DNA of 64,000 nt. Source: Escherichia coli. GTDB lineage: Bacteria > Pseudomonadota > Gammaproteobacteria > Enterobacterales > Enterobacteriaceae. Below the pieces are notes generated by a model. That model worked only from the letters and a program-made list of their open reading frames with translations, was not told the origin of the DNA and searched no databases. The position numbers and the translations under genes are program-made. The stretch lies in assembly GCF_050920415.1 (NCBI RefSeq), contig NZ_CP169309.1. One strand, given 5' to 3'. Below, one piece after another: positions 50,003-51,022 of this stretch (position 1 is its first letter; each line of letters starts with the position of its first letter).

Positions 50003-50324
50003 AGTTCTAAAAGCAGTTTTCAATGATAAATAAATGGCGATTTTTACAAAGAGATAATAACGTAGATTGAAATAATATGTATTAGTGATTGAGTAAACGG
50101 GATTATTCTTCACACTGCATCCATTTTGCTGTCACTACCAAAGTAAAAGGGGCTATGCTTTCACGTAACCCCTTGATTTATTTGATAAGTTTGCGGTGTC
50201 TGAACTGGTGCTGTAATTGGTTGAAATATTTCATCTAATGTCTGGTTCAACTTTCCTTAGCTGCCTGAAAGTTTTTTTGATATTACCCATCAATAATAGG
50301 GTGACGGTGTACCACGCCTGACTG

Positions 50325-50522
50325 ATGAACTGCGTGCTCAGAGTTACCACTTCAGCGCATAACCGTGGCAGCAGGCCCGGACAGAACAAACGGCTCAGGA
50401 CATTATCGGTAGGGGACGTACTGGTAGTCTGTAAACTAAACCGACTGGGGCGCAGTATGCGGCATCTTGCCGTGCTGTTGGAGGAGCTGTGAGAACGTGG
50501 TATTAACTTTCGTGCTCTGACT
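50325..50522 (+). pseudogene. pinH: remnant of Pin/Hin-type serine recombinase (DNA invertase) with in-frame stop
   Basis: Translates ...LRTLSVGDVLVVCKLNRLGRSMRHLAVLLEEL*ERGINFRALT, matching the Pin catalytic core; truncated. Confidence 0.7.
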
Positions 50523-51022
50523 CTACCAATATTTGCCCAACAATGGGGGGACGAAAGCTGTAAAAGTAAAACAATCTGCAATCTCAATATTATTGTGTGA
50601 TTTTTATGTGAGCAGAAGATATTCATCAGAAACGATTATGTAAATCATTTTATTTTTCCGACGGCTTCAATGTCGAAAGAAAAGAATACGCCCGTATTTC
50701 CTGAATAGATTGACTTTTTTATCCAACCACACTTCAGCGCACTGCGTTTAAAAAATGCCTCTTTCTTATGCGGAATATCATCATTTCATCATGATGTCTT
50801 TGATGAGCGGTGAACACAATACACTTGCGCTGTCTCTTCAGGATGATTCCCCTGGTCTGGTGCCTATGGGCTGATGTTGCAGCAGAGCTAAGGTTGCTTA
50901 AACGCTACTCAGTATTCACTTTTCAGAGGATGAAATTTATGAACAGGACCAGTCCCCATTATTGTCGTCGCTCAGTACTTTCCTTACTAATATCTGCCTT
51001 GATATATGCTCCGCCCGCGATG

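What the first reader, a model, noticed from the sequence alone, without database searches (positions are those of the whole stretch)
50231..50626. Decayed serine-recombinase (Pin-like) gene between the effector-like ORF and the autotransporter
Plus-strand translation from 50325 gives a Pin/Hin catalytic core (…VLVVCKLNRLGRSMRHLAVLLEEL, stop, ERGINFRALT) with an in-frame stop at 50490 and no C-terminal HTH. It is the relic of a DNA invertase, marking old mobile DNA between ileY and the ssrA-linked prophage.
Basis: seen in the sequence. Interest (0 to 1): 0.3.

Follow-up and report, generated by a model that had tools for sequence, protein, structure and literature searches.

The report
Dead invertase gene scrap (pinH)
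This is a non-functional leftover of about one third of a phage-type DNA-invertase gene, fused to a scrap of an IS3 insertion sequence; it matches the already annotated E. coli pseudogene pinH and is ordinary genomic debris.

Summary
Window 50373-50521 (+) matches E. coli pinE nt 124-272 at 82% (PinE residues 39-91, 39/53 identical; Pfam Resolvase E 7.6e-11; Gin structures E 7.5e-16). A weak collinear tail runs to about 50547.

- **Missing parts:** the first ~41 codons, which hold the catalytic serine, are absent. So are the E-helix, the C-terminal HTH and any crossover site.
- **IS3 fragment:** the stretch just upstream (50283-50377) is an internal piece of IS3 orfB (81%).
- **Coordinates:** 50231-50626 are those of a mechanical minus-strand ORF.
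- **Known locus:** synteny (ygaQ, ileY, ypjCB, relic, ypjA) and 89.6-92% collinear identity place it at the position of K-12 pseudogene pinH (b2648). NCBI's annotation pipeline already marks it as a partial "recombinase family protein".
- **Age and decay:** about 3000 of 5426 complete E. coli genomes carry it. All eight alleles examined share both breakpoints, while their stops and frameshifts differ. Polymorphic sites fall evenly over codon positions (8/10/9), which indicates neutral decay.

Verdict: already known, non-functional, low interest.

The parts
50373..50521 (+). Pin-type serine DNA-invertase gene fragment (pinE nt 124-272, PinE residues 42-91). Holds NRLGR in place of DRLGR. No catalytic Ser, no E-helix, no HTH.
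   Evidence: blastn 122/149 = 82%, E 2e-39. tblastn PinE 39-91, 39/53 identical. Pfam PF00239 profile positions 49-103 of 145. Gin structures E 7.5e-16.
50522..50547 (+). Probable continuation of the invertase fragment after a 4-nt deletion and frameshift (pinE nt 277-302, PinE residues 93-101, SIDTSTPMG versus STNICPTMG). No similarity beyond this point.
   Evidence: 17/26 identical in the collinear register; 6 of 2000 shuffles do as well. A free local alignment of the downstream DNA to the rest of pinE is at chance level.
50283..50377 (+). Internal fragment of an IS3-like orfB (IS3 nt 528-623, InsF residues ~58-88, ...GAPRLTDELRAQGY...), in a different frame from the invertase fragment.
   Evidence: blastn 79/97 = 81%, E 5e-20. 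Hits to annotated IS3 transposase genes at 81-82.5%, E 2e-13, in the 28 Gb E. coli collection. tblastn InsF 65-81, 13/17. The K-12 allele gives Pfam HTH_21 at E 3.3e-6, 27.7 bits, just below the 28.1 cut-off.
50373..50377 (+). IS3/invertase junction. Five bases (AGGCC) can be assigned to either parent, which suggests a deletion join at microhomology.
   Evidence: The two blastn alignments overlap here. All 8 alleles aligned share the same junction.
50490..50492 (+). In-frame TGA, specific to this lineage. pinE has CGC (Arg), K-12 and six other alleles have TGC (Cys), and this allele has TGA.
50325..50492 (+). Chimeric 55-codon ORF read by the first-stage reader. Codons 1-13 are out-of-frame IS3 debris and the rest is invertase fragment. 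Not a gene.
   Evidence: Other alleles carry different stops and frameshifts.
50231..50626 (-). Mechanical antisense ORF of 131 aa that supplied the finding's coordinates. Not a gene.
   Evidence: No Pfam hit. Its amino-acid sequence drifts freely between alleles, and it is broken in 5CRE51 and O157.

Best explanation
The region is a non-functional composite pseudogene at the position of E. coli K-12 pinH (b2648).

A Pin-type small serine DNA invertase gene once lay here. Its nearest intact relatives are pinE of prophage e14 and invertase genes of phages, including P2-type phages and Fels-2 (the "tail-fibre invertase" role of these genes is from background knowledge, not tested here). An IS3-like element was also present.

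At least three deletion joins left only two pieces. One is 95 nt from the interior of IS3 orfB. It abuts, at a 5-nt microhomology, about 175 nt from the middle of the invertase gene (PinE residues ~42-101).

Nothing needed for recombination survives:
- no nucleophilic serine
- no E-helix
- no DNA-binding HTH
- no crossover sites
- no invertible segment

The remnant does nothing as a recombinase and has since decayed neutrally. Different E. coli lineages have picked up different lesions. In this window's allele the lesion is a TGA at 50490.

Shown: the homologies, the boundaries, the shared breakpoints, the absence of the other parts, and the even spread of polymorphism over codon positions. 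Inferred: the order and mechanism of the deletions, and the absence of any secondary role.
For: - **Invertase homology:**
- **IS3 homology:**
- **Same locus as K-12 pinH:** synteny ygaQ / tRNA-Ile ileY / ypjC-ypjB (fused here as ypjCB) / pinH / ypjA. Collinear alignment gives 92% mean column identity over three sequences, one of them identical to the window. K-12-type alleles are 89.6% identical over 50373-50565. K-12 pinH maps to window 50361-50600.
- **Existing annotation:** the NCBI pipeline marks the same stretch as a partial pseudo "recombinase family protein" missing both termini, in every genome inspected.
- **Missing parts:** no similarity to pinE nt 1-123 or 303-555, or to the rest of IS3, in the flanks or anywhere in the 64 kb. 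No pix/hix/gix-like site, with the real pix sites taken from e14 and PMC12529663.
- **Ancestral truncation, later decay:** all 8 alleles share both breakpoints and 14 fixed differences from pinE. Stops and frameshifts differ between them.
- **Neutrality:** segregating sites by codon position are 8/10/9. Diversity is 0.072-0.085, similar to the flanking intergenic DNA at 0.058-0.080.
Against: - No expression or phenotype data were available, so a secondary role of the DNA or of a short peptide cannot be formally excluded.
- The antisense frame stays open for about 121 codons in 6 of 8 alleles.
- The neutrality test rests on only 8 alleles and 27 segregating sites.
- The deletion history is inferred from end points only.
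Confidence: 0.93

Rival explanations
1. The 55-aa plus-strand ORF (or its longer K-12 equivalent) is expressed as a truncated recombinase peptide with a regulatory role, for example interfering with PinE/PinQ/PinR subunits.
For: An ATG-initiated ORF exists. Intact Pin paralogues are active in E. coli K-12 and act on one shared segment (PMC12529663).
Against: - The ORF's N-terminus is out-of-frame IS3 debris.
- Alleles differ by stops and frameshifts.
- Polymorphism is even over codon positions, 8/10/9.
- No plus-strand promoter-like site was found in 50000-51000.
- The E-helix, which from background knowledge forms the dimer interface, is absent.
Confidence: 0.02
2. The minus-strand 131-aa ORF at 50231-50626, whose coordinates the finding carries, is the real gene, and the recombinase similarity is incidental.
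For: It is the longest ORF in the region. It stays open for about 121 codons in 6 of 8 alleles. The NCBI pipeline called a 53-aa minus-strand hypothetical protein within it in one genome.
Against: - No Pfam family matches.
- The amino-acid sequence changes freely between alleles, and the frame is broken in 5CRE51 and O157.
- Segregating sites are even over its codon positions too (10/8/9, derived).
- The DNA is fully explained by two plus-strand homologies with E values of 1e-18 to 1e-39.
Confidence: 0.02
3. The relic DNA has been taken over as part of the upstream regulatory region of the ypjA autotransporter, for example as a silencer-binding or spacer region.
For: It lies about 400-650 nt upstream of the ypjA start. 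About 3000 of 5426 genomes retain it. Short blocks next to it (50220-50259, 50620-50659) are little varied.
Against: - The relic itself is among the most variable stretches, at 0.045-0.12 per 40-nt window.
- In O157 a deletion runs from its 3' edge into ypjA.
- The strongly conserved block is 50755-50940, outside the relic.
- No Rfam family reaches its threshold.
Confidence: 0.04
4. The fragment derives from a transposon resolvase (Tn3 / gamma-delta type) rather than from a DNA invertase.
For: Both subfamilies share the Pfam Resolvase domain that is hit. Gamma-delta and Tn3 resolvase structures are also matched.
Against: - Gin invertase scores E 7.5e-16, against 2e-5 or weaker for resolvases.
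- DNA is 82% identical to pinE and up to 81.6% identical to annotated phage DNA invertase genes.
- No resolvase gene appears among the DNA-level hits.
Confidence: 0.01

Closest known systems
E. coli K-12 pinH (b2648), annotated pseudogene between ypjB and ypjA
   Same: Same genomic position and neighbours. The sequence is collinear, at 89.6% over 50373-50565. The IS3/invertase junction and the 3' break are the same.
   Different: This allele is a rare haplotype: only 12-15 of 5426 genomes are at least 99% identical. It carries TGA where K-12 has TGC. Its neighbours ypjCB and ygaQ are intact here but split or pseudogenised in K-12. ypjA is interrupted here by what I read as an IS2-type element.
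PinE of cryptic prophage e14 and the Hin/Gin/Cin/Pin DNA invertases
   Same: The fragment is 74% identical in protein and 82% in DNA to PinE residues 39-91. Its best structural relatives by sequence are Gin entries 3uj3/4m6f.
   Different: Only about 60 of 184 codons remain. The catalytic Ser, E-helix and HTH domain are missing, and so are the crossover sites. It cannot work as an invertase.
IS3 (insE/insF) of E. coli
   Same: Window 50283-50377 is 81% identical to IS3 nt 528-623 within orfB/insF.
   Different: It is an internal 95-nt scrap. There are no terminal inverted repeats, no orfA and no DDE catalytic domain. It is not a mobile element.

Membership tests
Small serine recombinase, DNA-invertase subfamily (Hin/Gin/Cin/Pin) | Sequence similarity to the resolvase/invertase N-terminal catalytic domain (Pfam PF00239) | tested here: met
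   E 7.6e-11, 42.7 bits against a cut-off of 23.3, but only profile positions 49-103 of 145.
Small serine recombinase, DNA-invertase subfamily (Hin/Gin/Cin/Pin) | Closer to invertases than to resolvases | tested here: met
   Gin E 7.5e-16 against gamma-delta resolvase 2.2e-5. PinE 39/53 identical. DNA hits are annotated pinE or DNA invertase genes.
Small serine recombinase, DNA-invertase subfamily (Hin/Gin/Cin/Pin) | Nucleophilic serine near residue 9/10 in the N-terminal motif (position from background knowledge; PinE begins MLIGYVRVST) | tested here: not met
   Homology starts at PinE residue ~39-42. Nothing matches pinE nt 1-123 in the flanks or the window. That position is occupied by an IS3 fragment.
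Small serine recombinase, DNA-invertase subfamily (Hin/Gin/Cin/Pin) | Conserved acidic/arginine active-site motif D-R-x-x-R (PinE KLDRLGRS) | tested here: not met
   All eight alleles read N or another residue instead of D (KLNRLGRS). NMBU also has R to L.
Small serine recombinase, DNA-invertase subfamily (Hin/Gin/Cin/Pin) | E-helix and C-terminal helix-turn-helix DNA-binding domain | tested here: not met
   No similarity to PinE residues 102-184.
Small serine recombinase, DNA-invertase subfamily (Hin/Gin/Cin/Pin) | Adjacent invertible segment flanked by inverted 26-bp crossover sites (pix/hix/gix/cix) | tested here: not met
   No match with up to 3 mismatches to the family pattern or to the e14 pix sequence anywhere in the 64 kb. 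Core-motif hits are at chance level and far away. Of the 17 inverted repeat pairs found in 47-57 kb, only the IS ends are convincing; the rest are short, imperfect and not pix-like.
Small serine recombinase, DNA-invertase subfamily (Hin/Gin/Cin/Pin) | Uninterrupted reading frame | tested here: not met
   TGA at 50490, a 4-nt deletion at 50522, and truncation at both ends.
Counterpart of E. coli K-12 pseudogene pinH (b2648) | Same chromosomal position (ygaQ, ileY, ypjC/ypjB, pinH, ypjA) | tested here: met
   Annotation of K-12 and of a genome 100% identical over the 661-nt query. tRNA with anticodon CAT at 47721-47796.
Counterpart of E. coli K-12 pseudogene pinH (b2648) | Collinear sequence with the same breakpoints | tested here: met
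   Alignments. K-12 pinH maps to window 50361-50600.
IS3-family insertion sequence | Terminal inverted repeats plus orfA/orfB encoding a DDE transposase | tested here: not met
   Only IS3 nt 528-623 is represented. The upstream and downstream flanks show no significant IS3 similarity (one marginal hit at 50829-50880, reached by 2 of 100 shuffles, has no protein-level support).

The most novel reading that the evidence does not exclude
The most novel reading not excluded is that the relic is more than inert. As a ~250-nt patch homologous to both IS3 copies and active pin genes, it could act as a substrate for ectopic recombination or gene conversion. Alternatively, its chimeric short ORF or its antisense ORF could yield a peptide or RNA that modulates the PinE/PinQ/PinR inversion switch recently linked to phage T2 resistance. 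I found no evidence for either. All alleles are about equally distant from pinE (81-85%), and polymorphism looks neutral.
Probability: 0.03. Interest if true: 0.4.

Novelty: already known. Interest (0 to 1): 0.08.

Why it matters
It matters little.
- **Annotation:** the "gene" is a two-part chimera of IS3 orfB and an invertase gene. The ORF start at 50325 is not recombinase sequence, and the finding's coordinates belong to an antisense ORF.
- **Genome history:** the shared breakpoints in all alleles examined show that the scar predates their divergence. The ileY-ypjA interval has therefore long been a site of mobile-DNA traffic.
- **Possible practical use:** because it appears to evolve neutrally, it could serve as a small neutral marker for haplotyping this very polymorphic region.

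Tried and rejected
I searched for a family-wide pattern, the actual e14 pix sequence and the core AAACCNNGGTTT. The first two gave no hits; the core motif gave only four one-mismatch hits, at chance level and none within 3 kb of the relic. Inverted repeats in 47-57 kb gave only the ends of the IS inside ypjA plus short, imperfect pairs.
2. **The missing invertase and IS3 parts.** Alignments of the flanks were at shuffle level, and the whole-window search found only the one stretch of each. A marginal IS3-like match at 50829-50880 (reached by 2 of 100 shuffles) has no protein-level support and was dropped.
3. **Dating the relic outside E. coli.** An exact 20-mer scan of 100,044 species genomes gave two real hits. 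Both are E. coli-like contigs inside unrelated assemblies (L012, L013, 91-92% identical), probably contamination. The other four hits are chance 20-mers. An exact-match scan cannot show absence from other Escherichia species.
4. **Known RNA families in 49800-51100.** Only two matches appeared, both far below their thresholds.
5. **Promoter and terminator scan.** Nothing above the shuffle expectation, and nothing on the plus strand.
6. **Antisense ORF as a gene.** Rejected.
7. **Gene conversion from pinE as the cause of high polymorphism.** Not supported. All alleles are 81-85% identical to pinE and share 14 fixed differences. One cluster of three pinE-state sites in allele NMBU remains ambiguous.
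8. **Literature search for pinH.** Mostly unrelated hits. The only relevant mention lists pinH among genes deleted in a reduced-genome strain.

Full report
**What is at the stated coordinates.** The range 50231-50626 is exactly a minus-strand ORF of 131 aa from the mechanical ORF list. It has no Pfam match. There, an ORF at 50325-50492 reads MNCVLRVTTSAHNRGSRPGQNKRLRTLSVGDVLVVCKLNRLGRSMRHLAVLLEEL, then TGA at 50490-50492, then ERGINFRALT. The quoted strings and the stop are in the sequence as described.

**Is the recombinase similarity real?** Yes.
- PinE of K-12 prophage e14 was fetched. Its residues 39-91 align with 39/53 identical.
- Against the whole 64 kb window the match has E 6e-16, and it is the only such stretch.
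- At the DNA level, pinE nt 124-272 matches window 50373-50521 at 122/149 = 82% with no gaps.
- Pfam Resolvase (PF00239) scores E 7.6e-11 and covers profile positions 49-103 of 145.
- Among solved structures, Gin invertase entries 3uj3 and 4m6f score E 7.5e-16, against 2.2e-5 or weaker for gamma-delta and Tn3 resolvases. That query was my frame-hopped reconstruction and double-counts one residue at the frameshift.
- In the phage collection the best DNA hits are annotated DNA invertase genes at up to 81.6% identity, including P2-type phages and Fels-2.
- In E. coli genomes the best intact gene is pinE at 82.7%.

The fragment therefore comes from a Pin-type DNA invertase, not a resolvase.

**How much of the gene is left.**
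- The strong match ends at 50521.
- After a 4-nt deletion, the next 26 nt (50522-50547) are 17/26 identical to pinE nt 277-302 in the collinear register. Only 6 of 2000 shuffles do as well. The fragment probably runs to PinE residue ~101.
- Beyond that there is no similarity to the rest of pinE. Upstream, nothing matches pinE nt 1-123.
- About 60 of 184 codons survive.
- The N-terminal motif with the nucleophilic serine is absent. So is everything from the E-helix to the C-terminal HTH domain.
- The conserved KLDRLGRS reads KLNRLGRS.
- "Catalytic core" in the finding is therefore an overstatement.

**The upstream part is IS3, not recombinase.** Window 50283-50377 matches IS3 nt 528-623, inside orfB/insF, at 79/97 = 81% (E 5e-20).
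- A search of 5426 E. coli genomes with 50231-50400 hits annotated IS3 transposase genes over exactly this sub-range (query positions 53-147, 81-82.5%, E 2e-13).
- In the IS3 reading frame the window gives G-V-P-R-L-T-D-E-L-R-A-Q-S-Y-H-F-S, against InsF 65-81 GAPRLTDELRAQGYPFN.
- The less decayed K-12 allele gives a Pfam HTH_21 hit at E 3.3e-6 and 27.7 bits, just below the 28.1 cut-off.
- This frame differs from the invertase frame.
- The two homologies overlap by five bases (AGGCC, 50373-50377), as expected for a deletion join at microhomology.
- Both ends of the IS3 piece are internal to the element. No inverted repeats, orfA or DDE domain are present.

**Identity with a known locus.** The window is E. 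coli chromosome.
- A genome 100% identical over a 661-nt query has this annotated order: glaH, alpha-amylase family gene, tRNA-Ile, ypjCB, partial pseudo "recombinase family protein", a small hypothetical ORF, autotransporter.
- K-12 MG1655 has the same order in reverse: ypjA, pinH (b2648, pseudogene), ypjB, ypjC, ileY, ygaQ. Cryptic prophage CP4-57 lies beyond ypjA.
- The K-12 pinH region aligns collinearly with the window, at 89.6% over 50373-50565.
- K-12 pinH maps to window 50361-50600. The NCBI pipeline's pseudo-CDS in other genomes map to 50364 through 50489-50531.
- This is the known pinH pseudogene. The only literature mention I found lists it among genes removed in a reduced-genome strain (PMC10652928).

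**Population picture.** About 3000 of 5426 complete E. coli genomes contain the full relic (3003, 3052 and 3008 genomes). This window's allele is rare, with only 12-15 genomes at 99% identity or more. I aligned eight alleles.
- All share the IS3/invertase junction, the 3' break and 14 fixed differences from pinE. The truncations therefore predate the divergence of these alleles.
- Later lesions differ between lineages. TGA at 50490 occurs only in the window allele among the eight, and the pseudo-CDS ending at 50489 in the 100%-identical genome fits the same stop. pinE has CGC at that codon and the other alleles have TGC. Strain 5CRE51 has a 1-nt deletion, NMBU has a later stop, and in O157:H7 a deletion runs from about 50520 into ypjA.
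- Segregating sites fall 8/10/9 on codon positions 1/2/3 of the invertase frame.
- Nucleotide diversity is 0.085 in the IS3 piece and 0.072 in the invertase piece. The flanking intergenic DNA has 0.080 and 0.058.
- All alleles are 81-85% identical to pinE, so there is no sign of large conversion tracts from the intact paralogue.

This is the pattern of neutral decay.

The real e14 crossover sites were recovered as an inverted repeat, AAACCTTGGTTTGGGAGAAGG / CCTTCTCCCAAACCAACGTTT. They agree with the sites given in PMC12529663. No such site exists in the window, even with three mismatches, and core-motif matches are at chance level and distant. No invertible segment is associated with the relic.

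**Rivals.**
- The antisense ORF stays open for about 121 codons in six of eight alleles. Its protein sequence drifts freely, it is broken in two alleles, and it has no family match. I regard it as spurious.
- A functional truncated peptide is unlikely for the reasons given under neutrality, and no plus-strand promoter-like site was found.
- No Rfam family reaches its threshold in 49800-51100.
- A cis-regulatory role for ypjA cannot be excluded. However, the relic is one of the more variable stretches, whereas the block that is really conserved lies outside it at 50755-50940.

**Mechanism.** The remnant does not function as a recombinase. The most likely history, inferred from end points only, has four steps.
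1. A prophage-borne invertase gene and an IS3-like element lay in the ileY-ypjA interval.
2. At least three illegitimate deletions removed the left part of IS3, then the interval between IS3 nt ~623 and pin nt ~124 (joined at AGGCC), then everything 3' of pin nt ~302.
3. The scar became widespread in E. coli.
4. It has drifted since.

**Context caveat.** No tmRNA gene is present in the window. Downstream of ypjA the annotated names under matching genomes are GapS1, site-specific integrase, DNA adenine methylase and replication endonuclease. I read these as a P2-like prophage, from background knowledge.

**Verdict.** The feature is already known (pinH), non-functional and of low interest. The only addition here is that the annotated pseudogene is a chimera with an IS3 orfB scrap.

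Noticed in passing
window 50755-50940: The ~185 nt directly upstream of the ypjA start codon are almost invariant among 7 diverse alleles. Diversity is 0.007 in the 39-codon ORF at 50755-50874 and 0.0 in two of the 40-nt windows, while surrounding DNA varies by 6-12%. All three differences in the small ORF are amino-acid-changing and unique to this window's allele, so the conservation looks nucleotide-level (a regulatory region, a 5' UTR or a recent sweep) rather than protein-level. No RNA-structure signal (z +1.5). The ORF has no NCBIfam match and is variously named 'hypothetical protein' or, oddly, 'ATPase'.
   Followed up: partly
window ~51037-52348: An insertion sequence interrupts the ypjA-like autotransporter gene. 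Its ORFs look like IS2 insC/insD (identification from memory). It has 33-nt imperfect inverted ends. Its orfA appears split into two overlapping ORFs (51074-51268 and 51180-51482), so the copy may be defective. The genome 100% identical over the relic query shows no transposase gene here, and its ypjA is broken in a different way.
   Followed up: no
window 48548-50002 and 44909-47161: ypjCB (484 aa) and the alpha-amylase-family gene ygaQ (750 aa) are intact here. K-12 has split ypjB/ypjC and a ygaQ pseudogene. The 3' end of ypjCB is extremely polymorphic between strains (diversity 0.16 over the last 30 nt).
   Followed up: no
window 50003-50754, compared across 7-8 E. coli alleles: The whole ypjCB-ypjA intergenic region is unusually polymorphic for E. 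coli: mean pairwise difference 6-8%, and up to 19.5% in one 40-nt window. Alleles are mosaic; for example, the window allele shares states with LR62 at 50383-50410 but with NMBU at 50460-50520. This suggests old haplotypes shuffled by recombination.
   Followed up: partly
window ~57283-64000: Immediately downstream of ypjA lie a 506-aa ORF and a 337-aa ORF on the minus strand. Matching genomes annotate this stretch as GapS1 family protein, site-specific integrase, DNA adenine methylase and replication endonuclease. I read this as a P2-like prophage with a candidate defence gene next to its integrase; assigning the names to the individual ORFs is my inference. No tmRNA gene is in the window.
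   Followed up: no
L012 (NZ_JAHZMP010000086.1, 539 nt) and L013 (DEQI01000374.1, 2799 nt): Contigs filed under Terrisporobacter mayombei DSM 6539 (coverage 0.74 in the contig name) and a Planococcaceae metagenome-assembled genome are 91-92% identical to this E. coli ypjCB-pinH region. They are most likely E. coli contamination in those assemblies.
   Followed up: partly
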